The notes under the pieces: model-generated
The model's database searches: none
Seen by the model: the letters and a program-made list of their open reading frames with translations, nothing else
What the model was told of the DNA's origin: nothing
Part shown: one piece after another, positions 20,222 to 44,540 of the stretch
How the letters are laid out: the number at the start of each line of letters is the position of its first letter
How positions within the stretch are numbered: the stretch's first letter is position 1
Origin: the human T2T-CHM13v2.0 reference genome, Homo sapiens
Length of the DNA stretch: 64,000 nt
Assembly: GCF_009914755.1 (NCBI RefSeq)
Contig: NC_060941.1
Direction: 5' to 3' (one strand)
Position numbers and translations under genes: made by a program

Positions 20222-20480
20222 GTTTTTTATTGTGCTAAAATACACAAATATAAATTTCCCATTTCAACCATTTCTTTTTGCTCCTTCACTCCCCACCCAC
20301 CCACCCATTTTTACCGTATAGTTCAGTCGTGCTCAGTACCTTCTACCTTCACGCTGTGTGCAACCCATCTCCAGAAGCCTCTTCATCCTGCAAAATTGAA
20401 ACTGGACCCATTAAACAACACCTCCCCATTCCTCCTCCCCCGGCCCCTGGCAACTGCCATTCTGCTTCTTTCTCCACATA
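20222..20480 (-). mobile_element. L1M 3'-end fragment (duplicate at about 33760-34020)
   Basis: ttattgtgctaaaatacac...cccattaaacaacacctccccattcc...cccctggcaactgccattctg. Confidence 0.65.
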
Positions 20481-20622
20481 TGGAATATATTCTATATACC
20501 TAGTTTTACATTAAGATCATAGATAGCTTTGTTTTCAGTATGTATATCTACTTTATTCTTTTCAGTAATTTCATGTTTATTATGTGGCTGTACCATCATG
20601 GTTTAAACTATCCATATTTTAA

Positions 20623-21044
<422 letters not shown>

Positions 21045-21329
21045 TGAAATAGATTCCTAGAAATAAGATAGACTGAAGAGTATGTAAATTTTAAATTTTT
21101 TTACAGACTGTGTCATTGCTTTTTAAAAATGCTGATTACCAAAATGTCACTTTTTGATACTAAAAAATAGATTGTTTTAAACACACAAAGTAAGTAGGGC
21201 TTATCAAAAAGTTAATATATTTTGCATTTCTCACAAGTGTGTTGAATTTCTCCCCCTTGCATTGTACAGCAGGAATCCTGACTCAGTCTAACTTTCTTAT
21301 ACTTAAAAAAGTATATACTAAAACATAGG

Positions 21330-21550
21330 CCAGGAGTTAGCAAATGTTTTCTATAAAAGACCAGATAGTAAATATTGTTCTTTGTGGGCTATATAATCTC
21401 TGTTGCAACAATGTGACTCCACCTTTGTCTTGGAAAGCTGGGATAGATAATATATAAAAGAGTGGGAGTGGCTGTGTTTCAACAAAACTTTGTTTACAAA
21501 ACAGGGGTCATACTAGATTTGTTCTGAGGACCATAGTTTCTTAACCTCAG
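21330..21550 (+). mobile_element. MER58A-like hAT fossil (duplicate at about 34870-35090)
   Basis: caggagttagcaaatgttttctataaaagaccagatagtaaatatt...aaactttgtttacaaaaacagg. Confidence 0.65.
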
Positions 21551-21737
21551 TCTAGGCAATCCATCAAGTAATTCTGCATTCACGATAGAAGTCTTATTGT
21601 ATATATTGGCTGACTGTCTTTCCTTTCTCTAATGTTAACCACTGATTTTGTGGAGCATGGATTCTAGGGAAATAATACCCAGGTAAGATGTCTATTACCA
21701 TGTGTGTCTTATTTTTGAAAGAGTGGTTAAATTCTTA

Positions 21738-22529
<792 letters not shown>

Positions 22530-22859
22530 TTAACTCTCTGAGCCAACATTTCCTCTTCTGTTAAATGGGAATATTAATAATACTTAGCCCTTGGAGACAC
22601 TGTTAGAATTTGAAGCACAATGAATAATTTTTAAGAGAGCTTGACTCATGAGAAAAATAAGCTTAAATGCATGAATATATATATCAAGCATGAATTTACC
22701 TAGTGCATATGCATTATACACTGGGTGCATAATACTTTATAAAATAATCATTGTTTTAAAAAATAGAGTTTCATTATTTGGGGAGAGGCATTACCGTCAT
22801 TTCCTTTCTGCTGACTTCCCCTCTTCAGAGTTTTCTGCTCTTCCCCTCCCATCCCACCA

Positions 22860-23964
22860 CCTTGCTTTGTCACAAAACAAAGCCAATAGGATCACCAACA
22901 GTTTAAGACTGGTTTACTCAAAACGAATTCATTGTTTTACATAGCTGAACACAGAAATGATAAATAATGTTCTATAAATATTTGTTGGTTGACAGCTTTG
23001 GAACAATGTCCTCTAGAAAAAGCTGAACGTAGCCACCCACCTTGTACGAGAGCCGCAAAGAATAGCCATGTGCCTGAATATGTGTCAGCCGCTGTGTGAC
23101 TGGAGGGGCTGAGGAAGGGGCGTAGAGGGTGTTGTGAGGTCCCTTCCGACAAGCAGTCAAGAACGCATAGAAATACATTACAAAAATTAAATAGATAAGT
23201 TGAAATGCATGTTAAGAAGAGCCCCAGAGTGTGGTTGCTTGGGTAGGGGTAGGTTCAGGAATTGAAGGGACGTCCCTAGGGCCTGGGTCCCTGCCTCCTA
23301 ATTTGCCACAAATGTAACAGTGTCTTGTTGCTTCCAGGTCACTCAGGGATTCGACTCTGAGGTCAGTGATGCACTTGGCACCAGAACTCGATGGGGTTGG
23401 CACAGACCTGCCAGCCTCAGCCACTTTCATTCTGGAAGCTGTTAAAAGAGACAGTTATAAAAATTGAGGAATCAGCAAGAGAATTCCTGGTTCCGTGCTA
23501 CCTTCTTCTCTCTGTCTTGGCAAGTGTAGGGCCTGTCCACTTGCTCAGGACTCTTTGTCCAACCTCAGCTCCCTAGACCTTTCATCAGTGGCTCAGGGGG
23601 TCTCTTCAGGCAGCCTCTTCCGGCTAACACTTCCTCCTGTCTTCCCTCTGTCAGGGGCAGCTCTTCCGTGGTTCCTTGCAGACCCCAGGTCAGGCCAGAA
23701 AACACCTCTATGGCCCTTCCCTGTGTCCCACCACCAGATAGGACCTCAAAGGCCTGGGGTCCCCAGGATGGCCCTCAAACCGACTGGTGCCCTTGCAGGC
23801 TGCCACCCTCCAAGTCCTGCTTCTCTCTAGAGATGGGCAGGAGCACCAGCCCTCACCTGGCACCAGCAGTGAGTCTCATAATTGCCATCTACCATTTTGC
23901 TAGGGGGCTTCTGGGGATCCTAGGAAAAGCAGCAGATGCCTGGGTGCTTGGGGACCTGGGCATT
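22860..23964 (-). pseudogene. Decayed CCL3/MIP-1alpha-like CC-chemokine gene relic, copy 1 (exon 2 at 23857-23964, exon 3 at 23343-23438, 3'UTR to about 22860)
   Basis: Exon 2 reads ...HPGICCFS*DPQKPPSKMVDGNYETHCWCQ|gtgag, with the CC-x22-C spacing of CCL3L. The intron is 418 nt (CCL3L 421 nt) and alignable. Exon 3 reads acag|C FQNESG*GWQVCANPIEFW... ITDL...AATCCCTGA. The 3'UTR aligns to the CCL3L AU-rich element. Confidence 0.85.
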
Positions 23965-26900
23965 CTGAGGGAAGGAGCAGCGTGACCCTGAGTCATTTTT
24001 CACTGGGGACAAATGAGCCAACTCCTTCTACCCAGTGATAAAATCAGAAGGAAGCAGATGGAGACAGCACTGTTCAGGGGATGATTTGGGGATGAGAAGA
24101 ACTGGCAGGAAGTTGGGGATGTGGGGGTGAGAAGAACCAGCAGGAAGTTGGGGATTTCTTGTTTCCCCACTTTTCCCTTCCATTTCTGTTTGAGCCTTAG
24201 GTTTGGCCTCCGTCTCCCTCTGTAGGAATTGCAGCTAATTAAATATTCTGCCTCTTATTCCAGCTTTACTGGGGGAACATAATATGGTCTAAGAAGAGAT
24301 TTTTCCAGCAAGAGGCCATCTCTGCAAATCACCTGTGAGGCAGACCTGTGGCAATTTTATGACTCAGCTGGCCACCGGGATTGTAGCTGGGTTCTGCCGC
24401 TTGTTGAAACCTACTCAATGTTCTCCTTCCCTAAGTAGGACAAGACCGTATCCTGCCTTTAAGGTTTATAGAATAAAAACTGAAAACTCTTTGGGGAAGA
24501 AAATCTTCCTGAACAGATAGCCCAGGGCATTTTGAAAATCCCTTAGGAAGTTCTCTGTTTCACTTGGGTACCTTTGTCCTTGGACTTTGGTGATGTGGTT
24601 TGACCCCAGCTAGAGAGTGAGGGGAACAACAGCAAAAGGCAGGACAAAGACTGACTCGTGAGAGGAGGCCCAGGAACAGGGGGCCATTGTGAATGAGGAG
24701 GACGTGGGGGCCCAAGAAAGTGAGCAAAAGAGGACAGGGCTTGCGCACTCAGTCACCAGCCCCCTTCTGGGGTCCAAGCTGTGTCCCCTTCTCTAAAGAG
24801 GTAAGCCCTGAGTCATGGGAAGATGGAAACCGGGGCTCATGAGACAGGATGTTTTTTAAGCACCGTGGTGTCTTGTTGACTTGCACATGCACGGGGGTCT
24901 TGGGTAACCACAGGGCTCAGGGTATTTGCAGGAACAGTTCAAGTGCTCACTTGTCTTGGGGCTGTTTATGGGGAAGTGGTTTCCACAGTGAGAGGAGGTG
25001 AGATATTGTTGTCACCCCGGACGACACTTAGCTAGTTCCTTCTCACTAAAGCTCTGTAGTCATATTTTCCCTGGCAGAGCAGAAACTTCTATGTTATCCC
25101 ACAGCTGTTCTAACGGTGTAGACTTGACTTATGCAATGATGCCAGGAGTCCTGAGCAGCACAGCCCAACTTCAATCACACACAGATGGACAGAGCTGTAT
25201 TAGCAAAGCCTGAGCTACTGAGCGATGAGAGTACAGCCAGGCTTTCAGACATCTGTTCATTCAAGAGAGATATGCGCTAAGCCAAGGACCTAAAGATGTG
25301 TTTAATATGGGTGCTAATATGCATAAGGAACCTTGAAATAAATGTTCTTAGCCTTTGGCCAAGAGGGTCCATGTCTAGGAATCTATTCTCCATAGAAATA
25401 AATTCAAATATGGAAAAAATGAACAATGCATAAGTGTATTTGGTCCCCAGCATATTTATAGCAACTTAAAATTGGACCCAATTTAAATGCCTATGATATG
25501 GAAATGGCTAAGAAAATTATGGGATCTTCCCTTGATTGGCTATTAGGCAGCCTTTACAAACAATGCAGTGACATGAGAAATGCTTATGTTATGGTAAGCT
25601 TAAAAAACTCAAGATGCAAATCAGCTTATTTTAATCAGGAGCCACCTAGCATTTGGGATGTGGTCAATCCCACATAATGTATTTTTGTGGGTGCAGTTCC
25701 CAGGAAAGAGGAGGAATAAAAACGGCAAGTATGAAGTGTCTCCTTCGCTTGCAGTCTCCTTGTCTACCCCTTTGTCCATCCACTATGAAAGGACTCCCTT
25801 CTGTTCCTTAATATGGACAATTTCTATTGAGGACTCATTGTTCTAAGAATTGTCTCATCTCCTCCTGCATCCTCAGTGCCCGATCTTTGGCTTCTATGAA
25901 GGAAGGTGGGTAGTGCGTATGGCAGGTCCAGTTCTACCTTTCTTAGTATGTTCTGGCGTGGGTATGTAGCCCCATTTTCTAGTGGTTACCTTGACATCAT
26001 GAAGAGTTTATGTCTCTTTTGCCCTAGGTTTGGGCAATAGTCATTCACTGTGCAACAGGAAATACACGAGTCAGCATCTTATTAAAAATAAAGTCATTCA
26101 GGAAAGTGGACGACTAATAGTTTCTAATCTAGAGAGCATAGGAGAAGAAATGTTTACCACACACAAAGTATTAGTGCCTTTTATATCACGAAAACAAAAA
26201 TAACAGGAAAAAGACAAACACATTATAGTGAAAACTTGTTTTTCCTAACCAGCATCTATTCTGCATGTTTCCTGATGCCCGAAACTCACATTTCCTCAGG
26301 AAAATCTCCCTTCTGCACCATTCTCAGGCTTTAAGTTTATGTAAAATTCAGTAAACCCAAAGATTCAAGTTATGTGCCTTGATTAACTTAAGCAAATCAA
26401 TGAAACCCATCCCCATAACCACAGCGACAGGTTAGGAAATTCGGTTCCTAAGTCAGTCACATCCGAAAGGGCCTAGTGATGTTTTTTTCCAGTGGGATCA
26501 CAGACTCACTCTTCCTTGCAGAAAATGAACAAAGGATTCATGTAACACTGGCAGGTACTGGCAGCCACCCAGGGCCTCTCACAGGAAAGGGAGATCAGAA
26601 AGAGAAGCAAAGAGGACTCATGAGATACCATAGGGCTGCTGCGTCCAGCCTTGCCTGGAGCTAGGGCCACCTCGATGCCCTATAGTCTTGGAGCCACAAC
26701 GTGCATTTACTCAAAGCCTCTTTGAGTTTGGTTTGCTTGTTTGCTTTCTGCCTGGAAACTGCCAGCATCCTGAGAGATACGAGATCTGCATCTGTGCAGA
26801 GACACAGGGTTTGTTAAAAGTCACAGGCCCTGACTGAAGTGTGGAACTGGCTGAAATGAGAAAGTGGTAATTTGGGGAGGACCTTGTGAAATGGAAGGAG

Positions 26901-27186
26901 TTTTAAACCTTACATGCATCAGAATTACCTGGAGCCTTGTGAAAACACAGGTTGCTGGGCCCTAGTCCATTAAGAAAGGAAGTGGGGCTTAGAATGTTCA
27001 TTTCTCCCATGTTCCCAGGTGATATTCACCATGCTGTCCTGTCTGGACACTACCTTTTGCCATACCCATTACAAGGTATTGCACGTGCTGGTTGAACTAT
27101 GGTCTGTCTTATTTTGGTGCTAAAAGCCTGTGCCAAATACCAACGCTGCAGCATTAAGGAATGTGATAGAAAAGATTCTGAATATA

Positions 27187-27517
<331 letters not shown>

Positions 27518-27865
27518 CTATGTATTACATCAGTAAGGTCCTTTAAGAAAGAGTTTAGGCTGCTTTGAAATGGGCTCATCTGAAATTGAAAAAGGAAGAA
27601 ATTGAACTTGCTAAAAAAGGCCCTTCCAACTTATTGACTGAGAACCCAGTAATCTGGAGACTTGAAGGGCTGTAATGGCAGAATTTTCTACTCTAAGATA
27701 AAGTTAGCATGAGCAGAGACAGGAAGATGAGAGACCTAATGAGGCCAAGGGTCAAATATTCATCACCTCCACATGGGCCAAGATGCAGGCAGAGGTCTCT
27801 CACCAGGGACTTGGTGGTAGAGGTGACACTGGTAGTGAGGTCTGTGCTAGAAAGTGCACATCCCT

Positions 27866-28382
<517 letters not shown>

Positions 28383-28758
28383 TCAGGCTAACTCACACAG
28401 ACAGGAAGTCAGCAGCCTCCAGAAAGCAGATCCTCCACATTGCACATCTCAGATTGTCCGTGGAGGACATTCCCCCAGGGAGGAGAGCTAGGGACTGCCA
28501 GATCAGCTGAACTGCTTAAAAATGCAATTCCCATTCTCCAGTTCCCTAACAGGAGTCTGTGTTTAACTTACTCTGTTTGTTCATAACGCTTGTATTTAGG
28601 GAATATTGGGCATGATTAAACTTTGTTTAGCTTTGGGTTTCTGGACCTTGTGAAACAATTCAGTGCAGGCAAATATTGTATGCCCCTATATTTTTTTCCT
28701 GAAAGTCAATAAAGAAGGAATGATGACACCTTCACTGCATCTATGGGGACAAAAGCTG

Positions 28759-28761
<3 letters not shown>

Positions 28762-28800
<39 letters not shown>
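28762..28800. repeat. (GT)n microsatellite, 6 nt shorter in copy 2 (about 42306-42338)
   Basis: Direct reading. Confidence 0.95.
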
Positions 28801-28805
<5 letters not shown>

Positions 28806-31142
28806 GAGAGACAGAGAACAGCCTTGTCAAAAGGATGTGTTTGTTGCTGTACCCTCATTATACGAAAGCCATCATGGCATCAAAATGCTGTAAGCCAGGC
28901 TGAGCTCTATTCTCTCTGCATCAACTCAGAATCCCTACCAGAAAGTGGTTGTGATGGATGGAATATCACCCATCAAAGAACAGGGTAAGATGAGACCAGA
29001 GAGGTAAGCTATGCAAGCTAATCAGAAAATAACTCAAAGTTTTAAAAGTGCAGAATATAAAAAGGAAAAACCCTCATTCCTAAAAAAATTTAAAAAAAGC
29101 CTCATTTCCTCAAAGAAACGACAGTTAGCTATTTGATGTGTGTCTTTCCAAATATTTGCCTATGTAAATATATGTGTGTATATGGCTTTTAAAAATAAAA
29201 ACAAAATAATATCCTTTACAGACAGTTTTGTAGCATATGTAGAGAATATATATGCATATACTGAATGTAAATAGATATGCATTTTACCTAGAATATTACG
29301 GACACTTTCCACAGTTATAGATGTGTGCTGCTTTTGTTTACTGACTGCAGAATATTCCATTGATGGACATCTTAATCCTCTACTTATTAATCCCCTACTG
29401 ATGACTGTTTGCATTTCTTTGCTCTTTACCAACCATACTTGAAAGAATATCCTCATGTCTACATATTCTTATCTTTTGGCAGTGTTTCTATGAAGCAGAT
29501 TCCTAGAAATGGGATCAGGTCAAATGGGATGTAGGTCACATAGTATGTGCATTTTAATATCTGCTAAGTAGTAGTGTTTAATTATGCTTTAAAGAGTTTG
29601 AGCCCTACAATTCTAAACATGTTTGGACACAGAAATTAGATTATTTTAAACAAAATGAAATAAGCATAGCTCATAAAAATTAACACGTTTGGTTTTCACA
29701 CAAATATTTTGAATTTCCCTTTCTTCTGCAAAAAGGACCCTAGCTTAGTATGCATTTCTTGTACATATAATGCAAGCAATCCATCTATTAAATAACTTAC
29801 CTTTCAAACCTATAGACAGCATCCTGCTCCACACAGAAGCTGGTTGTCTTTTCATTCTCTAACATTAGCTATTTATTTTGTAGAGTGTAGATTCTAGAGA
29901 AATAATGTATAATACACCTGTTGCCATATGCAGAGACTTACCACATTTAGAAAACAGTGGTGAATTCTATTGACAGTGGCTCTCAGTCATTAACATGCTA
30001 TGGAACACCTCATGAGCTTGATAAAAATATCAGTTCCCAGGTCTACACCTAAAGATCCTGATGTAATTGGCTTAAATAATCACTGCTGAAACACTCTATG
30101 TCAACTCAGAATCCTGACAGGAAGTGGTTGCAATGGATAAAGTATCATCTGTTAAAGAATGGGGTAAGATTTGAGTATAGGCGGGTCATACTTTGGGAAA
30201 TAACTTGGTCAATGGTTAACAGCATAGTCTGTAGTTCAATAAAAGTCCAGTTTTGGAACACAATTGACCTTTTACATGCTGTGTAACCTCAGCCAAGTTG
30301 TCTAACCTTTCTGAGCCCTGGGTTACTTTTCTGTCAAGTGGAGGTATTAATAGTACCTAAGCTGTACTATTGCATTGGTAAGATTAAATGAACAATGTAT
30401 AAAAAGCACTCAGTAGGAGTAAGCCTCAACAATGTAAGTAATTGCTATTAAGAGCTTGATTCATCATGAATATGCCCTACAGAATACTCTGCTTAATGGT
30501 GTCCATTCAAGTAGTTAATTCTCCTAGAGCGTGCATATTACGATTTGAGTTATAACATATTCGTAGTTTCAATGTTCCAGAACTTTGTGAAGTGGATAAC
30601 TCTGTCGTAGCGCTCCCCATCTCTCCCAATTTCCCTCCATTTCACCTCTTCCTAATCTTTGCCTATGATTCCTCTTAACCAGTGATTTTGATTTGCCAGA
30701 AAAACAAAACCAAACTCAATACTGGTTTACCGTTTAAAAGAACATCTTTATTATTTCCCCAGGCCGATCACAGCCCTGAACAAAAGCATCTGATACACAT
30801 TTGTCAGTCTGGTGGCTTTGGTGCCATGACTGCCTACACAGGCCGATGACAGCCACTCGGTTGTCACCAGACACACTGTGAGGGAAGGTGGAGGGGACAG
30901 GGGGAACTCTCAGAGCAAACAATCACAAACACACTGTGAAATCAAAAATAAATTATAAAAACTAAATAGTATAAATAAATTAAAATTTAAGTTAAGAAGA
31001 GTCCCACAGTGTGGCTGTTTGGCAATAACCAGTCCATAGAAGAGGTAGCTGTGGAGGTCACACGCATGTTCCCAAGGCTCAGGCTCCTGCTCCTCCCCAC
31101 TGGGCCCACTGAGGTCGCTGGGCCTCGAAGCTTCTGGACCCC

Positions 31143-31769
31143 TCAGGCACTCGGCTCCAGGTCACTGACGTATTTCTGGACCCACTCCTCACTGGGGTCA
31201 GCACAGACCTGCCGGCCTCTCTTGGTTAGGAGGCTGTGGAGAAGGGAGGAAGAGTTAAGCACTGGGGAATCCAGCCGGGGAATCCTGGGCCCACCATGGC
31301 CCTGACATCCTGCTCTCTGTCCTGGGCAGCTCAAGGCCTGCTCCTCTCTCAGGGGCCCCCTGCCTATCTCCGTCTAGAGAGCTTCTCTCAGTGACTCCAG
31401 GCAAGGGGGCCCTCAGAGTGTCCTGCTGCCTCCTTCTTCCTGTTCCTTTCCTCTGGCCTGGGGCAGCCCTTCCTGACTCTGTAACACCCACCTCACTCCA
31501 GCCCCAAGTCAGGTCACACCTCAGTGCCCTGCGTCCTGTATCCCCGATAGGCTCCTGAAGGCTGGGCCTTTCCAGGATGGCCTTCTGGCCTGTTTCTGCC
31601 CCCACCCTGACACTCCCTACCTCCCTAGAGGTGAGCAGGAAGACTGGCACTTACATGACACTGGGCTTGGAGCACTGGCTGCTCGTCTCAAAGTAGTCAG
31701 CTATGAAATTCTGTGGAATCTGCCGGGAGGTGTAGCTGAAGCAGCAGGCGGTCGGCGTGTCAGCAGCAA
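31143..31769 (-). pseudogene. CCL3P1: 5'-truncated CCL3L copy (CCL3L2 / LD78gamma), exons 2-3 only
   Basis: Exon 2 at 31655-31769 ([12 protein letters not shown]...KPSV) and exon 3 at 31143-31233 ([29 protein letters not shown]). Poly-A signal at 30747-30752. Exon 1 and the promoter are absent because the duplication junction lies 26 nt upstream of exon 2, inside intron 1. Confidence 0.92.
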
Positions 31770-31979
31770 CTGCGGAGAAAGGAGAGAATAAGCCCAACTC
31801 TGTATGTGTGCATATGTTTGTGTGTGTGTGTCCTACAGGTGTGAGCGAGTGGATGCTTCCACTACGTGTCTGCACATGTGTGTGTGCACTTGCATTGTCC
31901 TTGCACACCTGCGTGTGTCCCGTGAGAGCGGAGCCCAGCATGTGCTGGCACCTGCAGGAACATGTGAGTGTGCGTTCTG

Positions 31980-33100
31980 TGGGTCCCTGTCCTGATGGCT
32001 CTCCACTTGTCCCGAGTGTCACGACGACGAGGATGGGGACCATATCTTCGGAGCCTGAGGATCCAACACAGGTCCAGCCCTGTGCAGCCGCCCGCCAAGC
32101 CGCCAGAGGACGAGCCGGACGCCGAAGGCTACGAGTGGACGATTGCAGTTAGTTTCCAACTCGCCGACTTCGCGCCCCTCCACTGGCTCCGGCTTGATGA
32201 TCCCGGCTTCGGGGTGCTCTCGGTCCCTCCCCATCGCGTCGTCGCTTTCTCCCTTGGCATAACCCCCAGCCGCGGGGCCGCAGACCCTAAGAGCTCCATG
32301 AGCTCTCCGCGCCCTGCCCACCGGCCCCGGCCCCGACCCCTCCCCAGACCGGACCAGAGAGGTGGGAAGTTTGGGGGCACCCGCTGTGGGTGTCCCGTTT
32401 CCGGGGCTGGGCTCCGGGGAGCCGGCGCGGCGCCCGCTCCCTGCCCGCCAGCCCTTTGGGAGCTCAGGCGCGGGCAGCCGCTTGTGTTCCTGGGAAGGGC
32501 GGAGCTGCGTCCCGGGGAGACACGCCTTGCAGCCGGCAGCCTAGTCGCTCCCCGCTGGCCGGCCGCTCCGTGAGGGCCCCGCAGCGGAGGGTCGGGGCTG
32601 GGGCGGGCTGGAGAGGGGGCCCCGGGCTGGGGCCGGTTCGGCCTCCCGGGTGGCGCGCGGGCCGAAGAACTAGGAGGACCGCCGGGCCGGGCCGCTTGTC
32701 CTTTGGAAAAACCTTGGCGGTTCCTCCTCTGGTGTCCGTGGACCCCGCCGTGGCGTTCTCCAGGGCCGCGGACCTTTGCCCACCGGTCGCGCCAGCTGTC
32801 CTGGAGCAGAAAGGACCCCCCTCCTCCCGGACCGAGCCCCGAGCCCCGAGCCCCATGGAGCAGGCAAGCGCCGGAGTCCCGAGGCTAAGGCCCGGCCGGC
32901 GGGCGCTCTGGCACCTTTTCCCGCCCCCGAGGGTGCCTGTCCGGCCCGGCCGGGACTGGCTGGGAAACCGAGGCCGGAAGAGGTCGCAGTCCAGCAAGGA
33001 ATCGGTTTGTGTGGGGTGGGGGTGGGATGGGAGACCCCTCCCCAACCCCACCAGCCCCAGCCCAGCTGTGGCCCCCGCCGTGTCACTCAGAAAACCAGCG
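31980..33100. promoter_or_regulatory. Duplicated CpG island, now directly upstream of the truncated CCL3L copy
   Basis: Copy of 18440-19560 starting about 200 bp from the exon 2 acceptor at 31770. Confidence 0.8.
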
Positions 33101-34161
33101 TCAAACCCCAGCCCTGCCTGGGATGTGGACCTTGCCTGGGGAGAGTCCCGTTCAGGCTTTTCCAGGGCCTCTCCCCTGAGCAACAGGGGTGTCTGCGCTG
33201 GGCCTGGGCACTCACCAGGGCCTGCAGGCTGCCAGTCTGGAGTTTCCCTAGCATCAAATGTGCCACCGGAAGCTGAAGGTGGGGATGACCAGTGCCCCCC
33301 GGAGCGAAGACCCCCCATCTCTCCAGGATTGGGGGTCTGCTTAGGGGTCCACTTAGGGGTGTATCCCTCAGGCATTGGAAGTGCAGATGGGAGGCCCTGA
33401 GCCATGGTGGCTCCCCCAGTCCCCAGTTCTTTCTCTGTGTAAATCCAGCTTTGCAGGGACGGGGATGTGGTGCATTTCCCGGAAGAGCCGGGGTCCTGGG
33501 GCGTGGGGAGCTGGGGCTGGGTCGTGGGGAGCTGGGACTGGGGTGTGGGGAGGGGCCCAGGGTGAGCAAGCTGAAGCAGGACTGGCACAGGCCTCTGGAG
33601 GGCCTGGGGGAGGCTGGACGCCCCGGGGTGCACCCTTGCTTGTGCACTCTTCTAAGGGTCAGTCTCAGTTTGCCCATCTGTAAATAGGGTTGATTGTCCC
33701 TGCCCTACGTGGCTGTTGTGAGCATTCAATGAGCACTACCAGTCCTGGGAGACTCTTGGTGTTTTTTATTGTGCTAAAATACACAAATATAAATTTCCCA
33801 TTTCAACCATTTCTTTTTGCTCCTTCACTCCCCACCCACCCACCCATTTTTACCGTATAGTTCAGTCGTGCTCAGTACCTTCTACCTTCACGCTGTGTGC
33901 AACCCATCTCCAGAAGCCTCTTCATCCTGCAAAATTGAAACTGGACCCATTAAACAACACCTCCCCATTCCTCCTCCCCCGGCCCCTGGCAACTGCCATT
34001 CTGCTTCTTTCTCCACATATGGAATATATTCTATATACCTAGTTTTACATTAAGATCATAGATAGCTTTGTTTTCAGTATGTATATCTACTTTATTCTTT
34101 TCAGTAATTTCATGTTTATTATGTGGCTGTACCATCATGGTTTAAACTATCCATATTTTAA

Positions 34162-34583
<422 letters not shown>

Positions 34584-35276
34584 TGAAATAGATTCCTAGA
34601 AATAAGATAGACTGAAGAGTATGTAAATTTTAAATTTTTTTACAGACTGTGTCATTGCTTTTTAAAAATGCTGATTACCAAAATGTCACTTTTTGATACT
34701 AAAAAATAGATTGTTTTAAACACACAAAGTAAGTAGGGCTTATCAAAAAGTTAATATATTTTGCATTTCTCACAAGTGTGTTGAATTTCTCCCCCTTGCA
34801 TTGTACAGCAGGAATCCTGACTCAGTCTAACTTTCTTATACTTAAAAAAGTATATACTAAAACATAGGCCAGGAGTTAGCAAACGTTTTCTATAAAAGAC
34901 CAGATAGTAAATATTGTTCTTTGTGGGCTATATAATCTCTGTTGCAACAATGTGACTCCACCTTTGTCTTGGAAAGCTGGGATAGATAATATATAAAAGA
35001 GTGGGAGTGGCTGTGTTTCAACAAAACTTTGTTTACAAAACAGGGGTCATACTAGATTTGTTCTGAGGACCATAGTTTCTTAACCTCAGTCTAGGCAATC
35101 CATCAAGTAATTCTGCATTCACGATAGAAGTCTTATTGTATATATTGGCTGACTGTCTTTCCTTTCTCTAATGTTAACCACTGATTTTGTGGAGCATGGA
35201 TTCTAGGGAAATAATACCCAGGTAAGATGTCTATTACCATGTGTGTCTTATTTTTGAAAGAGTGGTTAAATTCTTA

Positions 35277-35570
<294 letters not shown>

Positions 35571-35625
35571 TCAAAACAAAACAAAACAAACACACAAACA
35601 AAAAACTGGGAGACCGAGGTGGTCA

Positions 35626-35900
<275 letters not shown>

Positions 35901-36399
35901 TTAGTCTGCATGTGTATCACTTGGGGGTTTGGTAAAAATCTAGATTCCCGCATCCAAACCCAGTTCTCTTGTGAGCATTTTAAATGACCATCCCAGGTGG
36001 TTCTGGAATGCTCATAGGATTGCATATTAGTTACACTATTTATTCGCTGCATGGCCATGGACAAGTTGTTTTAACTCTCTGAGCCAACATTTCCTCTTCT
36101 GTTAAATGGGAATATTAATAATACTTAGCCCTTGGAGACACTGTTAGAATTTGAAGCACAATGAATAATTTTTAAGAGAGCTTGACTCATGAGAAAAATA
36201 AGCTTAAATGCATGAATATATATATCAAGCATGAATTTACCTAGTGCATATGCATTATACACTGGGTGCATAATACTTTATAAAATAATCATTGTTTTAA
36301 AAAATAGAGTTTCATTATTTGGGGAGAGGCATTACCGTCATTTCCTTTCTGCTGACTTCCCCTCTTCAGAGTTTTCTGCTCTTCCCCTCCCATCCCACC

Positions 36400-37505
36400 A
36401 CCTTGCTTTGTCACAAAACAAAGCCAATAGGATCACCAACAGTTTAAGACTGGTTTACTCAAAACGAATTCATTGTTTTACATAGCTGAACACAGAAATG
36501 ATAAATAATGTTCTATAAATATTTGTTGGTTGACAGCTTTGGAACAATGTCCTCTAGAAAAAGCTGAACGTAGCCACCCACCTTGTACGAGAGCCGCAAA
36601 GAATAGCCATGTGCCTGAATATGTGTCAGCCGCTGTGTGACTGGAGGGGCTGAGGAAGGGGCGTAGAGGGTGTTGTGAGGTCCCTTCCGACAAGCAGTCA
36701 AGAACGCATAGAAATACATTACAAAAATTAAATAGATAAGTTGAAATGCATGTTAAGAAGAGCCCCAGAGTGTGGTTGCTTGGGTAGGGGTAGGTTCAGG
36801 AATTGAAGGGACGTCCCTAGGGCCTGGGTCCCTGCCTCCTAATTTGCCACAAATGTAACAGTGTCTTGTTGCTTCCAGGTCACTCAGGGATTCGACTCTG
36901 AGGTCAGTGATGCACTTGGCACCAGAACTCGATGGGGTTGGCACAGACCTGCCAGCCTCAGCCACTTTCATTCTGGAAGCTGTTAAAAGAGACAGTTATA
37001 AAAATTGAGGAATCAGCAAGAGAATTCCTGGTTCCGTGCTACCTTCTTCTCTCTGTCTTGGCAAGTGTCGGGCCTGTCCACTTGCTCAGGACTCTTTGTC
37101 CAACCTCAGCTCCCTAGACCTTTCATCAGTGGCTCAGGGGGTCTCTTCAGGCAGCCTCTTCCGGCTAACACTTCCTCCTGTCTTCCCTCTGTCAGGGGCA
37201 GCTCTTCCGTGGTTCCTTGCAGACCCCAGGTCAGGCCAGAAAACACCTCTATGGCCCTTCCCTGTGTCCCACCACCAGATAGGACCTCAAAGGCCTGGGG
37301 TCCCCAGGATGGCCCTCAAACCGACTGGTGCCCTTGCAGGCTGCCACCCTCCAAGTCCTGCTTCTCTCTAGAGATGGGCAGGAGCACCAGCCCTCACCTG
37401 GCACCAGCAGTGAGTCTCATAATTGCCATCTACCATTTTGCTAGGGGGCTTCTGGGGATCCTAGGAAAAGCAGCAGATGCCTGGGTGCTTGGGGACCTGG
37501 GCATT
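36400..37505 (-). pseudogene. Decayed CCL3-like CC-chemokine relic, copy 2 (exon 2 at 37398-37505, exon 3 at 36884-36979)
   Basis: Duplicate of 22860-23964 at offset 13541. Confidence 0.85.
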
Positions 37506-40500
37506 CTGAGGGAAGGAGCAGCGTGACCCTGAGTCATTTTTCACTGGGGACAAGTGAGCCAACTCCTTCTACCCAGTGATAAAATCAGAAGGAAGCAGAT
37601 GGAGACAGCACTGTTCAGGGGATGATTTGGGGATGAGAAGAACTGGCAGGAAGTTGGGGATGTGGGGGTGAGAAGAACCAGCAGGAAGTTGGGGATTTCT
37701 TGTTTCCCCACTTTTCCCTTCCATTTCTGTTTGAGCCTTAGGTTTGGCCTCCGTCTCCCTCTGTAGGAATTGCAGCTAATTAAATATTCTGCCTCTTATT
37801 CCAGCTTTACTGGTGGAACATAATATGGTCTAAGAAGAGATTTTTCCAGCAAGAGGCCATCTCTGCAAATCACCTGTGAGGCAGACCTGTGGCAATTTTA
37901 TGACTCAGCTGGCCACCGGGATTGTAGCTGGGTTCTGCCGCTTGTTGAAACCTACTCAGTGTTCTCCTTCCCTAAGTAGGACAAGACCGTATCCTGCCTT
38001 TAAGGTTTATAGAATAAAAACTGAAAACTCTTTGGGGAAGAAAATCTTCCTGAACAGATAGCCCAGGGCATTTTGAAAATCCCTTAGGAAGTTCTCTGTT
38101 TCACTTGGGTACCTTTGTCCTTGGACTTTGGTGATGTGGTTTGACCCCAGCTAGAGAGTGAGGGGAACAACAGCAAAAGGCAGGACAAAGACTGACTCGT
38201 GAGAGGAGGCCCGGGAACAGGGGGCCATTGTGAATGAGGAGGACGTGGGGGCCCAAGAAAGTGAGCAAAAGAGGACAGGGCTTGCGCACTCAGTCACCAG
38301 CCCCCTTCTGGGGTCCAAGCTGTGTCCCCTTCTCTAAAGAGGTAAGCCCTGAGTCATGGGAAGATGGAAACCGGGGCTGATGAGACAGGATGTTTTTTAA
38401 GCACCGTGGTGTCTTGTTGACTTGCACATGCACGGGGGTCTTGGGTAACCACAGGGCTCAGGGTATTTGCAGGAACAGTTCAAGTGCTCACTTGTCTTGG
38501 GGCTGTTTATGGGGAAGTGGTTTCCACAGTGAGAGGACGTAAGATATTGTTGTCACCCCGGACCACACTTAGCTAGTTCCTTCTCACTAAAGCTCTGTAG
38601 TCATATTTTCCCTGGCAGAGCAGAAACTTCTATGTTATCCCACAGCTGTTCTAACGGTGTAGACTTGACTTATGCAATGATGCCAGGAGTCCTGAGCAGC
38701 ACAGCCCAACTTCAATCACACACAGATGGACAGAGCTGTATTAGCAAAGCCTGAGCTACTGAGCGATGAGAGTACAGCCAGGCTTTCAGACATCTGTTCA
38801 TTCAAGAGAGATATGCGCTAAGCCAAGGACCTAAAGATGTGTTTAATGTGGGTGCTAATATGCATAAGGAACCTTGAAATAAATGTTCTTAGCCTTTGGC
38901 CAAGAGGGTCCATGTCTAGGAATCTATTCTCCATAGAAATAAATTCAAATATGGAAAAAATGAACAATGCATAAGTGTATTTGGTCCCCAGCATATTTAT
39001 AGCAACTTAAAATTGGACCCAATTTAAATGCCTATGATATGGAAATTGCTGAGAAAATTATGGGCTCTTCCCTTAATTGGCTATTAGGCAGCCTTTACAA
39101 ACAATGCAGTGACATGAGAAATGCTTATGTTATGGTAAGTTTAAAAAACTCAAGATGCAAATCAGCTTATTTTAATCAGGAGCCACCTAGCATTTGGGAT
39201 GTGGTCAATCCCACATAATGTATTTTTGTGGATGCAGTTCCCAGGAAAGAAGAGGAATAAAAACGGCAAGTATGAAGTGTCTCCTTCGCTTGCAGTCTCC
39301 TTGTCTACCCCTTTGTCCATCCACTATGAAAGGACTCCCTTCTGTTCCTTAATATGGACAATTTCTATTGAGGACTCATTGTTCTAAGAATTGTCTCATC
39401 TCCTCCTGCATCCTCAGTGCCCGATCTTTGGCTTCTATGAAGGAAGGTGGGTAGTGCTTATGGCAGGGCCAGTTCTACCTTTCTCAGTATGTTCTGGCCT
39501 GGGTATGTAGCCCCATTTTCTAGTGGTTACCTTGACATCATGAAGAGTTTATGTCTCTTTTGCCCTAGATTTGGGCAATAGTCATTCATTGGGCAACAGG
39601 AAATAACACAAGTCAGCATCTCATTAAAAATAAAGTCATTCAGGAAAGTGGACGACTAATAGTTTCTAATCTAGAGAGCATAGGAGAAGAAATGTTTACC
39701 ACACACAAAGTATTAGTGCCTTTTATATCACGAAGACAAAAATAACAGGAAAAAGACAAACACATTATAGTGAAAACTTGTTTTTCCTAACCAGCATCTA
39801 TTCTGCATGTTTCCTGATGCCCGAAACTCACATTTCCTCAGGAAAATCTCCCTTCTGCACCATTCTCAGGCTTTAAGTTTATGTAAAATTCAGTAAACCC
39901 AAAGATTCAAGTTATGTGCCTTGATTAACTTAAGCAAATCAATGAAACCCATCCCCATAACCACAGCGACAGGTTAGGAAATTCGGTTCCTAAGTCAGTC
40001 ACATCCGAAAGGGCCTAGTGATGTTTTTTTCCAGTGGGATCACAGACTCACTCTTCCTTGCAGAAAATGAACAAAGGATTCATGTAACACTGGCAGGTAC
40101 TGGCAGCCACCCAGGGCCTCTCACAGGAAAGGGAGATCAGAAAGAGAAGCAAAGAGGACTCATGAGATACCATAGGGCTGCTGCGTCCAGCCTTGCCTGG
40201 AGCTAGGGCCACCTCGATGCCCTATAGTCTTGGAGCCACAACGTGCATTTACTCAAAGCCTCTTTGAGTTTGGTTTGCTTGTTTGCTTTCTGCCTGGAAA
40301 CTGCCAGCATCCTGAGAGATACGAGATCTGCATCTGTGCAGAGACACAGGGTTTGTTAAAAGTCACAGGCCCTGACTGAAGTGTGGAACTGGCTGAAATG
40401 AGAAAGTGGTAATTTGGGGAGGACCTTGTGAAATGGAAGGAGTTTTAAACCTTACATGCATCAGAATTACCTGGAGCCTTGTGAAAACACAGGTTGCTGG

Positions 40501-40822
40501 GCCCTAGTCCATTAAGAAAGGAAGTGGGGCTTAGAATGTTCATTTCTCCCATGTTCCCAGGTGATATTCACCATGCTGTCCTGTCTGGGCACTACCTTTT
40601 GCCATACCCATTACAAGGTATTGCACGTGCTGGTTGAACTATGGTCTGTCTTATTTTGGTGCTAAAAGCCTGTGCCAAATACCAACGCTGCAGCATTAAG
40701 GAATGTGATAGAAAAGATTCTGAATATAGGCCAGGCGCAGTGGCTCACGCCTGTAATCCCAGCACTTTGGGAGGCCGAGGCAGGCAGATCACGAGGTCAG
40801 GAGATCAAGACCATCCTGGCTA

Positions 40823-41053
<231 letters not shown>

Positions 41054-41487
41054 TTAGTAGCTATGTATTACATCAGTAAGGTCCTTTAAGAAAGAGTTTA
41101 GGCTGCTTTGAAATGGGCTCATCTGAAATTGAAAAAGGAAGAAATTGAACTTGCTAAAAAAGGCCCTTCCAACTTATTGACTGAGAACCCAGTAATCTGG
41201 AGACTTGAAGGGCTGTAATGGCAGAATTTTCTACTCTAAGATAAAGTTAGCATGAGCAGAGACAGGAAGATGAGAGACCTAATGAGGCCAAGGGTCAAAT
41301 ATTCATCACCTCCACATGGGCCAAGATGCAGGCAGAGGTCTCTCACCAGGGACTTGGTGGTAGAGGTGACACTGGTAGTGAGGTCTGTGCTAGAAAGTGC
41401 ACATCCCTGGCTGGGCGCGGTGGCTCACACCTGTAATCCCAGCACTTTGGGAGGCTGAGGCAGGTGGATCACGAGGTCATGAGTTCA

Positions 41488-41751
<264 letters not shown>

Positions 41752-42302
41752 TTAAAATGCAAATTCGAGCTTTGTAACTGAAAACATCTCTGCTTCTGGC
41801 TACCTGGCCCATGGAATTGATCAGAAGCAAATAGTAGCCTATGGACATTAGAAGGGAGTCACATTGCCAAAGAAACCACAAGACTGGTTCCAAACAGTCG
41901 CTGATTACACAATACCTAAGGCAACCTCAGGCTAACTCACACAGACAGGAAGTCAGCAGCCTCCAGAAAGCAGATCCTCCACATTGCACATCTCAGATTG
42001 TCCGTGGAGGACATTCCCCCAGGGAGGAGAGCTAGGGACTGCCAGATCAGCTGAACTGCTTAAAAATGCAATTCCCATTCTCCAGTTCCCTAACAGGAGT
42101 CTGTGTTTAACTTACTCTGTTTGTTCATAACACTTGTATTTAGGGAATATTGGGCATGATTAAACTTTGTTTAGCTTTGGGTTTCTGGACCTTGTGAAAC
42201 AATTCAGTGCAGGCAAATATTGTATGCCCCTATATTTTTTTCCTGAAAGTCAATAAAGAAGGAATGATGACACCTTCACTGCATCTATGGGGACAAAAGC
42301 TG

Positions 42303-42343
<41 letters not shown>

Positions 42344-44287
42344 GAGAGACAGAGAACAGCCTTGTCAAAAGGATGTGTTTGTTGCTGTACCCTCATTATA
42401 CGAAAGCCATCATGGCATCAAAATGCTGTAAGCCAGGCTGAGCTCTATTCTCTCTGCATCAACTCAGAATCCCTACCAGAAAGTGGTTGTGATGGATGGA
42501 ATATCACCCATCAAAGAACAGGGTAAGATGAGACCAGAGAGGTAAGCTATGCAAGCTAATCAGAAAATAACTCAAAGTTTTAAAAGTGCAGAATATAAAA
42601 AGGAAAAACCCTCATTCCTAAAAAAATTTAAAAAAAGCCTCATTTCCTCAAAGAAACGACAGTTAGCTATTTGATGTGTGTCTTTCCAAATATTTGCCTA
42701 TGTAAATATATGTGTGTATATGGCTTTTAAAAATAAAAACAAAATAATATCCTTTACAGACAGTTTTGTAGCATATGTAGAGAATATATATGCATATACT
42801 GAATGTAAATAGATATGCATTTTACCTAGAATATTGCGGACACTTTCCACAGTTATAGATGTGTGCTGCTTTTGTTTACTGACTGCAGAATATTCCATTG
42901 ATGGACATCTTAATCCTCTACTTATTAATCCCCTACTGATGACTGTTTGCATTTCTTTGCTCTTTACCAACCATACTTGAAAGAATATCCTCATGTCTAC
43001 ATATTCTTATCTTTTGGCAGTGTTTCTATGAAGCAGATTCCTAGAAATGGGATCAGGTCAAATGGGATGTAGGTCACATAGTATGTGCATTTTAATATCT
43101 GCTAAGTAGTAGTGTTTAATTATGCTTTAAAGAGTTTGAGCCCTACAATTCTAAACATGTTTGGACACAGAAATTAGATTATTTTAAACAAAATGAAATA
43201 AGCATAGCTCATAAAAATTAACACGTTTGGTTTTCACACAAATATTTTGAATTTCCCTTTCTTCTGCAAAAAGGACCCTAGCTTAGTATGCATTTCTTGT
43301 ACATATAATGCAAGCAATCCATCTATTAAATAACTTACCTTTCAAACCTATAGACAGCATCCTGCTCCACACAGAAGCTGGTTGTCTTTTCATTCTCTAA
43401 CATTAGCTATTTATTTTGTAGAGTGTAGATTCTAGAGAAATAATGTATAATACACCTGTTGCCATATGCAGAGACTTACCACATTTAGAAAACAGTGGTG
43501 AATTCTATTGACAGTGGCTCTCAGTCATTAACATGCTATGGAACACCTCATGAGCTTGATAAAAATATCAGTTCCCAGGTCTACACCTAAAGATCCTGAT
43601 GTAATTGGCTTAAATAATCACTGCTGAAACACTCTATGTCAACTCAGAATCCTGACAGGAAGTGGTTGCAATGGATAAAGTATCATCTGTTAAAGAATGG
43701 GGTAAGATTTGAGTATAGGCGGGTCATACTTTGGGAAATAACTTGGTCAATGGTTAACAGCATAGTCTGTAGTTCAATAAAAGTCCAGTTTTGGAACACA
43801 ATTGACCGTTTACGTGCTGTGTAACCTCAGCCAAGTTGTCTAACCTTTCTGAGCCCTGGGTTACTTTTCTGTCAAGTGGAGGTATTAATAGTACCTAAGC
43901 TGTACTATTGCATTGGTAAGATTAAATGAACAATGTATAAAAAGCACTCAGTAGGAGGAGTAAGCCTCAACAATGTAAATAATTGCTATTAAGAGCTTGA
44001 TTCATCATGAATATGCCCTACAGAATACTCTGCTTAATGGTGGCCATTCAAGTAGTTAATTCTCCTAGAGCGTGCATATTACGATTTGAGTTATAACATA
44101 TTCGTAGTTTCAATGTTCCAGAACTTTGTGAAGTGGATAACTCTGTCGTAGCGCTCCCCATCTCTCCCAATTTCCCTCCATTTCACCTCTTCCTAATCTT
44201 TGCCTATGATTCCTCTTAACCAGTGATTTTGATTTGCCAGAAAAACAAAACCAAACTCAATACTGGTTTACCGTTTAAAAGAACATC

Positions 44288-44293
44288 TTTATT
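44288..44293 (-). terminator. CCL3L1 polyadenylation signal AATAAA
   Basis: tttatt on plus strand about 390 nt after the stop. Confidence 0.8.
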
Positions 44294-44484
44294 ATTTCCC
44301 CAGGCCGATCACAGCCCTGAACAAAAGCATCTGATACACATTTGTCAGTCTGGTGGCTTTGGTGCCATGACTGCCTACACAGGCCGATGACAGCCACTCG
44401 GTTGTCACCAGACACACTGTGAGGGAAGGTGGAGGGGACAGGGGGAACTCTCAGAGCAAACAATCACAAACACACTGTGAAATC

Positions 44485-44540
44485 AAAAATAAATTATAAA
44501 AACTAAATAGTATAAATAAATTAAAATTTAAGTTAAGAAG
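44485..44540 (-). promoter_or_regulatory. AU-rich element in the CCL3L1 3'UTR
   Basis: Minus strand ttaaattttaatttatttatactatttagtttttataatttattttt has overlapping ATTTA pentamers. Confidence 0.75.

What the first reader, a model, noticed from the sequence alone, without database searches (positions are those of the whole stretch)
31143..32043. Duplication junction creates an in-frame chimeric chemokine ORF
Seen: an ATG at 32043 (minus strand, gatATGG, purine at -3 and G at +4) in the duplicated CpG island reads without a stop through the CA-rich tract, across the breakpoint and the 26-nt intron-1 remnant, into CCL3L exon 2 in the correct frame (...[22 protein letters not shown]...). Normal exon 2-3 splicing would give a 159-aa protein with a new Cys/His-rich N-terminus, a short hydrophobic start ([10 protein letters not shown]) and all four chemokine cysteines. 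In copy 1 the same ATG (18503) gives only a 93-aa non-chemokine ORF. Inference: the 'pseudogene' could encode a chimeric, probably non-classical or intracellular chemokine-domain protein. I recall reports of alternative 5' exons for CCL3L2, so transcription may be known while this ORF may not be.
Basis: partly seen in the sequence, partly recalled or inferred. Interest (0 to 1): 0.7.

Follow-up and report, generated by a model that had tools for sequence, protein, structure and literature searches.

The report
Chance open frame at CCL3P1 junction
A recent tandem duplication in the human chemokine cluster cut a CCL3-like gene and joined it to a CpG island so that a start codon reads in frame into the chemokine exons, but the frame looks like a chance by-product and the idea was already published in 2009.

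Summary
An ATG at 32043 (minus strand) is open for 130 codons across the duplication junction (31794/31795) into CCL3P1 exon 2. With the intact exon 2-3 splice it gives 159 aa carrying all four chemokine cysteines. The same ATG in copy 1 gives 93 aa.

It is not more than chance. The required frame stays open in 16% of dinucleotide shuffles, and an ATG-led frame of this length reaches the junction in phase in 8%.

The 83 new codons were not coding before. In four older paralogs of this TBC1D3-duplicon CpG island, a 0.5-kb block separates the ATG from the CA-rich tract. In three of them I checked the frame, and it differs.

Upstream ATGs (32299, 32260, 32234) would precede 32043 unless transcription starts within about 190 nt of it. 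Two other in-phase routes into exon 2 exist. One is a consensus donor at 33216 behind a strong-context ATG at 33405.

A 2009 paper already describes CCL3L2 (now CCL3P1) as having upstream exons 1A and 1B spliced to exons 2-3, with open frames containing chemokine-like domains. I could not read the primary paper, so I cannot say whether this exact frame is one of them.

Verdict: a real sequence feature and a known locus, with translation unproven. Low interest.

The parts
18254..31795 (.). Copy 1 of the 13.55-kb tandem duplication. It ends in the truncated CCL3-like gene (CCL3P1).
   Evidence: Self-BLAST: 99.601% over 13,550 columns. 39 substitutions and 15 indel columns.
31794..45336 (.). Copy 2 of the duplication. 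It begins with the CA-rich tract and CpG island and ends in CCL3L1 intron 1.
31794..31795 (.). Duplication junction; two G's are shared by both parental sequences.
   Evidence: The two BLAST segments overlap by 2 nt. Parental and junction sequences are shown.
31770..31795 (-). 26-nt remnant of CCL3L intron 1: pyrimidine tract, AG acceptor and a CTTAT branch-like motif 20 nt upstream of the acceptor.
   Evidence: acceptor contexts of CCL3P1 and CCL3L1. The motif is read.
31796..32043 (-). New N-terminal part of the ORF (codons 1-83, whose last base is 31795), from ATG 32043 through the CA-rich tract. It has five cysteines and one NAS sequon.
   Evidence: Identical in copy 1. At the 37.13-Mb copy, 100% over the 307 nt ending at the junction.
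31655..31769 (-). CCL3P1 exon 2, identical to CCL3L1 exon 2 and read in the chemokine phase.
   Evidence: Pfam IL8, 32.4 bits, ORF residues 99-129. PDB CCL3 match, E 6.8e-20.
31143..31233 (-). Coding part of CCL3P1 exon 3 with the stop codon. One change from CCL3L1, at 31232 (C for T, Phe to Leu).
   Evidence: Pfam IL8, 34.2 bits.
30726..31142 (-). 3' untranslated part of exon 3, identical to CCL3L1.
   Evidence: No difference in the 1196-nt alignment other than 31232. Span from the hub annotation.
31950..33000 (.). CpG island (GC 0.62-0.80, CpG observed/expected 0.53-1.05). ATG 32043 sits at its edge.
32019..32234 (-). Upstream ORF of 71 aa from ATG 32234, in another frame, overlapping ATG 32043.
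32129..32299 (-). Upstream ORF of 56 aa from ATG 32299, with an internal ATG at 32260.
33216..33405 (-). Candidate upstream exon: ATG 33405 in the context GCCACCATGG, and donor CTG|GTGAGT at 33216, in phase with exon 2 (131-aa product if spliced).
   Evidence: The frame is open only in copy 2 because of a one-base-shorter G run.
31909..31963 (-). Cryptic donor CAG|GTGTGC at 31909 with an in-phase ATG at 31963 (86-aa product if spliced). Used with ATG 32043 it is out of phase.

Best explanation
This is the 5' junction of CCL3P1, formerly called CCL3L2. A young head-to-tail duplication of 13.55 kb broke a CCL3L gene 26 nt before exon 2. It joined exons 2-3 to the CA-rich tail of a CpG island that belongs to the TBC1D3 duplicon.

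That island had already lost a 0.5-kb block holding a conserved splice donor. Any minus-strand transcript leaving it therefore has no strong donor before the junction and can run into exon 2.

The frame from ATG 32043 into exon 2 is open because the tract is poor in stops and the phase happened to fit. Most likely it is not a functional coding sequence: it is either not translated or gives an unstable product.

Shown here: the duplication, the junction, the frame, the lack of coding ancestry and the chance level. Inferred: the direction and start of transcription, and the absence of function.
For: - Duplication and junction.
- Chance level: the required frame is open in 796 of 5000 shuffles. 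An ATG-led frame of 83 or more codons is in phase in 164 of 2000.
- One of three minus-strand frames is open at the junction, so the phase fit is one in three.
- A plus-strand frame of the same 249 nt is also stop-free, and plus-strand ORFs of 63-192 aa overlap it.
- No coding ancestry. In the three roughly 90% paralogs (L004-L006), the homologous ATG opens ORFs of 77, 134 and 134 aa that stop inside a 0.5-kb block missing here. The ATG-to-tract distance differs by 512 or 496 nt, which are not multiples of three. Further indels of 4, 4 and 2 nt lie in the tract.
- The block is ancestral. It is also present in the most distant paralog, L019.
- The block carries the donor AGG|GTGAGT, score 10.1, in L004 and L019. 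In L005 and L006 nothing scores 7 or more.
- The island is part of the TBC1D3 duplicon. chr17:5.016-5.030 Mb is collinear with window 19176 to 4994.
- Upstream ATGs at 32299, 32260 and 32234.
- The N-terminal 92 residues match no Pfam family.
- RefSeq lists the locus as a pseudogene with no transcript (hub annotation). Reviews of 2012-2023 call it a pseudogene.
Against: - The ATG has G at -3 and G at +4.
- The exon 2 donor and exon 3 acceptor match CCL3L1's, and exon 2 and the whole 3' UTR are identical to CCL3L1, so a spliced, polyadenylated mRNA with the stop in the last exon is possible.
- The only coding change is a conservative Phe to Leu.
- A 2009 paper reports CCL3L2 transcripts from upstream exons with ORFs containing chemokine-like domains. 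The locus is therefore transcribed, and a chimeric frame was taken seriously by specialists.
- The loss of the ancestral donor makes unspliced read-through more likely, not less.
- A shuffle probability of 8-16% does not exclude function.
- No expression or ribosome data could be examined here.
Confidence: 0.7

Rival explanations
1. The read-through frame is translated. A transcript starting in the last 190 nt or so of the CpG island (between 32233 and 32044) reads unspliced across the junction and splices exon 2 to exon 3. It yields the 159-aa chimera. The product is either targeted to the secretory pathway by its short hydrophobic start, or stays in the cytosol, where the chemokine disulfides would not form.
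For: - Open frame with a good start context.
- No strong donor between the island and exon 2, because the ancestral one is deleted.
- The stop codon is in the last exon.
- Residues 2-10 have a mean hydropathy of 2.96. The true signal cores of CCL3L1 and CCL4L1 score 2.62 and 3.20.
- By offset from coordinates printed in PMC2851716, the GRCh37 CCL3L2 gene span seems to reach about 85 nt upstream of the junction. This is my inference and assumes the two assemblies are collinear.
Against: - Chance level of 8-16%.
- No coding ancestry.
- The upstream ATG at 32234 opens an ORF that overlaps ATG 32043.
- The longest strictly hydrophobic run is 5 residues, against 8 and 9 in the true signal peptides.
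- Five extra cysteines sit beside the four chemokine cysteines.
- A 92-residue extension lies before the region that ends in the CC motif. From recalled work on N-terminally modified chemokines, that region is needed for receptor activation.
- A cryptic donor at 31909 (score 8.2) would put ATG 32043 out of phase.
Confidence: 0.12
2. The chimeric frame that matters is a spliced one, not the read-through. An upstream exon ending at the consensus donor 33216 (ATG 33405, context GCCACCATGG) splices to the retained exon 2 acceptor. This gives a 131-aa protein without any signal-like start. It may be one of the published 1A/1B transcripts.
For: - Donor CTG|GTGAGT scores 10.4, the best between 31800 and 36000, and is in phase with exon 2. 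ATGs at 33405, 33375 and 33318 are in phase.
- Spliced product of 131 aa.
- The donor is kept in copy 1, the 37.13-Mb copy and the distant paralog L015.
- The exon 2 acceptor and a branch-like motif are retained.
- The published model has upstream exons linked to exon 2 and ORFs with chemokine-like domains.
Against: - The exon lies outside the CpG island, where CpG observed/expected is 0.15-0.28 at 33100-33500.
- I have no transcript evidence for it.
- In L012 and L013 the donor reads GTGAAT.
- The frame from ATG 33405 is open only in copy 2 because a G run is one base shorter. With the longer run in copy 1 and the 37.13-Mb copy it stops early, so it is not conserved.
- The donor weights are recalled approximations.
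- The positions of the published exons 1A and 1B could not be checked, because the primary paper is not held.
Confidence: 0.25
3. The locus makes only non-coding or aberrant RNA. Minus-strand transcripts from the bidirectional island are by-products of the plus-strand lncRNA promoter (NR_185320.1 starts at 32620) and have no protein product.
For: - The annotation lists only plus-strand transcripts from this island, and CCL3P1 only as a curated pseudogene (hub annotation).
- Upstream ATGs are present.
- Mentions of CCL3L2 or CCL3P1 in expression lists are not copy-specific. One paper states that cross-reactivity with CCL3, CCL3L1 and CCL3L3 is unresolved.
Against: A 2009 paper reports spliced mRNAs that include exons 2 and 3. 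Frames in phase with the chemokine exons exist by three routes.
Confidence: 0.55

Closest known systems
CCL3L2, now CCL3P1 (gene ID 390788), as described by the Ahuja laboratory in 2009
   Same: It is the same locus: a truncated CCL3-like copy lacking exon 1, next to CCL3L1. The Figure 1 legend of PMC2628739 states a four-exon structure, upstream exons 1A and 1B linked to exons 2 and 3, and ORFs with chemokine-like domains. It also states that chimpanzee contigs lack it (passages read).
   Different: The published model has upstream exons spliced to exon 2. I could not see the primary paper (PMC2929972 not held) or the review PMC2990928. I therefore cannot say whether the 159-aa frame is one of the published ORFs.
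CCL3L1, the parent gene at 44267-46156 in this window
   Same: Exon 2, intron 2 and the 3' UTR are identical, and exon 3 differs at one base. Same splice sites. Same Pfam IL8 domain.
   Different: CCL3L1 has exon 1 with the start codon and signal peptide. CCL3P1 has instead 26 nt of intron 1 joined to unrelated CA-rich and CpG-island DNA.
CCL4L1 in the same copy-variable unit
   Same: Another member of this duplicated cluster whose transcripts depart from the classical three-exon chemokine pattern, as described in the legend of PMC2628739.
   Different: There the cause is a point change in the intron 2 acceptor, not a duplication breakpoint. The signal-peptide exon is kept.
USP6, a chimeric gene built from a TBC1D3-type segment (recalled, not tested by name)
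   Same: chr17:5.016-5.030 Mb carries a paralog of the same CpG island followed by TBC1D3-type sequence, collinear with window 19176-4994. From memory this is the USP6 region, an example of segmental duplication in this duplicon family creating a fusion gene.
   Different: USP6 is an established protein-coding fusion of two coding genes. Here one partner is non-coding DNA and no protein is shown. That the 5.0-Mb locus is USP6 is recalled and comes from no call.

Membership tests
CC chemokine (Pfam PF00048, IL8-like small cytokines) | Sequence match to the chemokine domain above the curated cut-off | tested here: met
   ORF residues 99-129 score 32.4 bits and exon 3 scores 34.2 bits, against a cut-off of 21.3. 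Together they cover profile positions 2-34 and 37-60 of 60. PDB CCL3 matches at E 6.8e-20 and 6.2e-13.
CC chemokine (Pfam PF00048, IL8-like small cytokines) | Four conserved cysteines, including the adjacent CC pair | tested here: met
   All four are present in the spliced 159-aa translation. Five further cysteines lie in the new N-terminal part.
CC chemokine (Pfam PF00048, IL8-like small cytokines) | A cleavable signal peptide encoded by exon 1, leaving a short free N-terminus before the CC motif | tested here: not met
   Exon 1 and all but 26 nt of intron 1 are absent. 99 residues precede the CC pair, and 92 of them are new. The substitute hydrophobic start gives an inconclusive result with a crude hydropathy measure. 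No signal-peptide predictor was available.
CC chemokine (Pfam PF00048, IL8-like small cytokines) | Secretion and binding to CCR1 or CCR5 | not testable with these tools
   Needs expression and receptor assays.
Duplicated (unprocessed) truncated pseudogene | Derived from a parent gene by genomic duplication, keeping an intron, and lacking the parent's promoter and start codon | tested here: met
   Intron 2 is retained and identical to the parent. The copy ends 26 nt into intron 1.
Functional protein-coding gene | Reading frame preserved among related copies | tested here: not met
   The 83 new codons are identical in copy 1 and in the 37.13-Mb copy (100% over 307 nt), so those copies carry no information. 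In the three roughly 90% paralogs the frame is broken by a block of 512 or 496 nt and by indels of 4, 4 and 2 nt.
Functional protein-coding gene | Evidence of transcription across the ORF and of translation | not testable with these tools
   No RNA, ribosome or peptide data are available here. The literature gives transcripts from upstream exons only.

The most novel reading that the evidence does not exclude
In carriers of this duplication, a human-specific chimeric protein is made from ATG 32043. A de novo 92-residue Cys/His-rich extension, led by a short signal-like segment, is fused to an almost intact CCL3L1 chemokine domain. If secreted, such an N-terminally extended ligand could occupy CCR5 or CCR1 without activating them. 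The copy-variable cluster would then carry an antagonist-like gene alongside the agonist genes. That would bear on the inconsistent CCL3L copy-number associations with HIV.
Probability: 0.05. Interest if true: 0.6.

Novelty: already known. Interest (0 to 1): 0.2.

Why it matters
If the chimera were made, the CCL3L copy-number unit would encode products of different kinds. Assays that count CCL3L1, CCL3L2 and CCL3L3 together would then mix them. This concern was already raised in print: PMC2628739, and PMC2898815, which says its assay captures all three genes.

As it stands, the finding is a clear worked example of how a duplication breakpoint plus a stop-poor tract gives an in-frame fusion by chance. 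It adds a few anatomical details to a known pseudogene: the two-base microhomology, the loss of the ancestral donor in the island, and three in-phase routes into exon 2.

Tried and rejected
- Primary source. The paper for exons 1A and 1B (PMC2929972, PubMed 19279442) and the review PMC2990928 are not held. I could not place the published exons on the window. Their figures or supplements may already show this ORF.
- Literature searches. 'CCL3L2' found 12 papers and 'CCL3P1' found 8. 'CCL3Lb/CCL3La/CCL3L-2/chemokine-like domains' found 4, of which only PMC2628739 is relevant. 'LD78gamma' found 2, neither relevant by listing. 'TBC1D3 + CCL3L1' found 25, of which 15 were listed. PMC5883389 does not contain the word 'pseudogene'. 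None of the passages I read mentions translation of CCL3P1.
- Expression mentions are gene-list entries and cannot separate 99.6%-identical copies.
- Structure. A single-sequence AlphaFold2 fold of the 130-aa unspliced ORF had mean pLDDT 31.6 and pTM 0.17. It was low even over the chemokine half, so it says nothing about disorder of the new part. The spliced 159-aa product was not folded.
- translated the paralogs one base out of register. One search repeats the translation correctly. The indel list is unaffected.
- Rejected idea: that the 0.5-kb difference is an insertion in the paralogs. The most distant paralog also has the block.
- The donor scores use recalled approximate base frequencies. 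Against 11 annotated donors in the window they gave 3.7-11.2. They are a guide only.

Full report
**What is there**

On the minus strand, an ATG at 32043 opens a frame of 130 codons that ends at 31651. It runs through a CA-rich tract and crosses the point where two copies of a 13.55-kb tandem duplication meet. It then reads 26 nt of what was CCL3L intron 1 and enters CCL3P1 exon 2 in the chemokine phase.

The exon 2 donor matches CCL3L1's over all 16 nt shown. The exon 3 acceptor matches in its 12 intron bases; the only mismatch in the 18 nt shown is the exon base 31232. Joining the annotated exons gives 159 aa, with the stop at 31145-31143 and all four chemokine cysteines.

The same ATG in copy 1 (18503) gives 93 aa. 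The two copies are identical from the junction up to at least 32320.

**The duplication**

Window 18254-31795 matches 31794-45336 at 99.601% over 13,550 columns. There are 39 substitutions and 15 indel columns. Of the substitutions, 26 cluster at copy-1 positions 24013-26193.

The two parental sequences share only two G's at the join. This points to end joining or a replication-based event rather than homologous recombination; that is my inference.

The junction is unique in this genome. Only one of the 16 matches to a 401-nt junction probe covers its whole length.

Over the 1196 nt compared, CCL3P1 differs from CCL3L1 at one base: 31232, C for T. This changes Phe to Leu at the second base of exon 3. 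The base lies in the forward primers of published CCL3L1 copy-number assays (Table 1 of PMC2851716).

A published figure legend states that chimpanzee contigs lack CCL3L2 (PMC2628739). The duplication is therefore young.

**Where the new N-terminus comes from**

The non-chemokine side of the junction is the edge of a CpG island spanning about 31950-33000. The island is part of the TBC1D3 duplicon. chr17:5.016-5.030 Mb is collinear with window 19176 down to 4994. That stretch covers the island, the CA tract and the TBC1D3H gene body, all in the same orientation.

Besides copy 1 and a 100% identical copy at 37.13 Mb, the tract has paralogs of about 91% identity at 5.017, 60.89 and 60.99 Mb, and one of 77% at 85 kb.

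In the three paralogs of about 90% identity, a GC-rich block of about 0.5 kb lies between the ATG (plus its first eight codons) and the CA tract. The three 17q12 copies lack it. The most distant paralog also has the block, so the 17q12 copies carry a deletion.

In the three roughly 90% paralogs:
- The homologous ATG opens frames of 77, 134 and 134 aa that stop inside the block.
- The distance from the ATG to the end of the tract differs by 512 or 496 nt, neither a multiple of three.
- Further indels of 4, 4 and 2 nt lie in the tract.

The 83 new codons are therefore a composite of two non-coding pieces with no coding ancestry.

The deleted block carries a donor AGG|GTGAGT, score 10.1, in both L004 and the most distant paralog. 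In the other two paralogs nothing scores 7 or more. I infer that the block held the donor of an ancestral first exon. Its loss leaves minus-strand transcripts from the island without a strong donor before the junction.

**Is the frame more than chance?**

Upstream of the junction the in-phase frame is open for 356 nt. The other two frames close after 40 and 69 nt. One frame of three is open, and it happens to be the right one.

| Shuffle test | Result |
|---|---|
| Required frame fully open, 249 nt | 796 of 5000 |
| Any of the three frames open, 249 nt | 2176 of 5000 |
| ATG-led frame of 83+ codons reaching the junction in phase, 606 nt | 164 of 2000 |

One plus-strand frame of the same 249 nt is also stop-free. 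Plus-strand ORFs of 63, 112 and 192 aa overlap the region. The 192-aa ORF starts at 31995, which is the copy-2 equivalent of the start of the predicted plus-strand gene LOC124905373 at 18455 (hub annotation). The DNA is simply poor in stop codons.

**Obstacles and alternatives to the proposed protein**

Minus-strand ATGs at 32299, 32260 and 32234 precede 32043. The ORF from 32234 overlaps it. ATG 32043 is therefore the first start codon only if transcription starts within about 190 nt of it.

The 26-nt remnant keeps the acceptor and a branch-like CTTAT motif, so upstream exons can splice to exon 2, as the literature reports. A rough donor scan finds three routes into the chemokine phase:

| Route | Start | Donor | Product |
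|---|---|---|---|
| Read-through | ATG 32043 | none | 159 aa |
| Upstream exon | ATG 33405 (context GCCACCATGG) | 33216, CTG\|GTGAGT, score 10.4 | 131 aa, no hydrophobic start |
| Cryptic donor | ATG 31963 | 31909, score 8.2 | 86 aa |

If ATG 32043 were used with the 31909 donor, the frame would be out of phase.

The 33405 frame is open only in copy 2. A G run there is one base shorter than in copy 1 and in the 37.13-Mb copy.

**The product, if made**

Pfam finds the chemokine domain in residues 99-129 and in exon 3. It finds nothing in the first 92 residues. Solved CCL3 structures match residues 91-129.

The new part has five cysteines and one NAS sequon.

Residues 2-10 have a mean hydropathy of 2.96. 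The true signal cores of CCL3L1 and CCL4L1 score 2.62 and 3.20. The longest purely hydrophobic run is 5 residues, against 8 and 9. Whether the start acts as a signal peptide is open.

From recalled knowledge of chemokines, the residues before the CC motif are needed for receptor activation. A long extension would at best give a non-activating ligand.

A single-sequence structure prediction was uninformative, with mean pLDDT 31.6.

**What is known**

The Figure 1 legend of PMC2628739 (passages and section read) says several things. CCL3L2 was previously considered a pseudogene. [quoted passage not shown] The predicted ORFs contain chemokine-like domains. The source it cites is Shostakovich-Koretskaya et al. 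2009.

That primary paper and a 2010 review are not held. I cannot place 1A and 1B on the window or say whether the 159-aa frame is among the published ORFs.

Later papers call the locus the pseudogene CCL3P1. RefSeq lists it as a curated pseudogene without a transcript (hub annotation).

By offset from GRCh37 coordinates printed in PMC2851716, the old CCL3L2 gene span would reach about window 31880, some 85 nt past the junction. This is a weak inference that assumes the assemblies are collinear.

**Verdict**

The sequence feature is real and accurately described. The locus and the idea of a chimeric chemokine-like frame are already in print. The specific read-through frame is compatible with chance and has no coding ancestry. 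Its translation remains untested.

Noticed in passing
window 33216-33405 (minus); copy 1 equivalent about 19676-19866: A strong-context ATG (GCCACCATGG) and a consensus donor are in phase with CCL3P1 exon 2. The frame between them is open only in copy 2, because a G run near 33316 is one base shorter than in copy 1 and the 37.13-Mb copy.
   Followed up: partly
window 31152-31154 and 44693-44695 (minus-strand codon; positions worked out by hand); locus L008: CCL3P1 and the CCL3L1 copy in this window both end ...LEPSA. The CCL3-like copy at chr17:37.14 Mb and solved CCL3 structures end ...LELSA. The Pro variant is shared by the two tandem partners.
   Followed up: partly
window 31232: This is the only difference between CCL3P1 and CCL3L1 in 1196 nt (C for T, Phe to Leu). 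It falls inside the forward primers of published CCL3L1 copy-number assays, which explains why those assays skip CCL3L2.
   Followed up: partly
window 24013-26193 versus 37553-39733 (approximate): 26 of the 39 substitutions between the two duplication copies cluster in 2.2 kb. This suggests gene conversion from a third paralog or a fast-changing stretch.
   Followed up: no
window about 32016-32021, and copy 1 about 18476-18481; loci L004-L006 and L019: The three 17q12 copies of the TBC1D3-duplicon CpG island lack a block of about 0.5 kb that is present in four older paralogs. In two of them the block carries a conserved donor AGG|GTGAGT.
   Followed up: yes
window 31995-32573 (plus) and 32464-33405 (minus): Long ORFs lie on both strands of the CpG island: 192 aa on plus and 313 aa on minus. 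The plus one starts at the copy-2 equivalent of the start of the predicted gene LOC124905373. The 313-aa one has no Pfam match. This is typical of GC-rich, stop-poor DNA.
   Followed up: partly
locus L019 (chr17:82,500-86,500 of the same genome): This is the most divergent paralog (76-87% identity) of the island and CA tract, near the short-arm end of chromosome 17. It may be close to the ancestral single-copy source of this part of the TBC1D3 duplicon.
   Followed up: no
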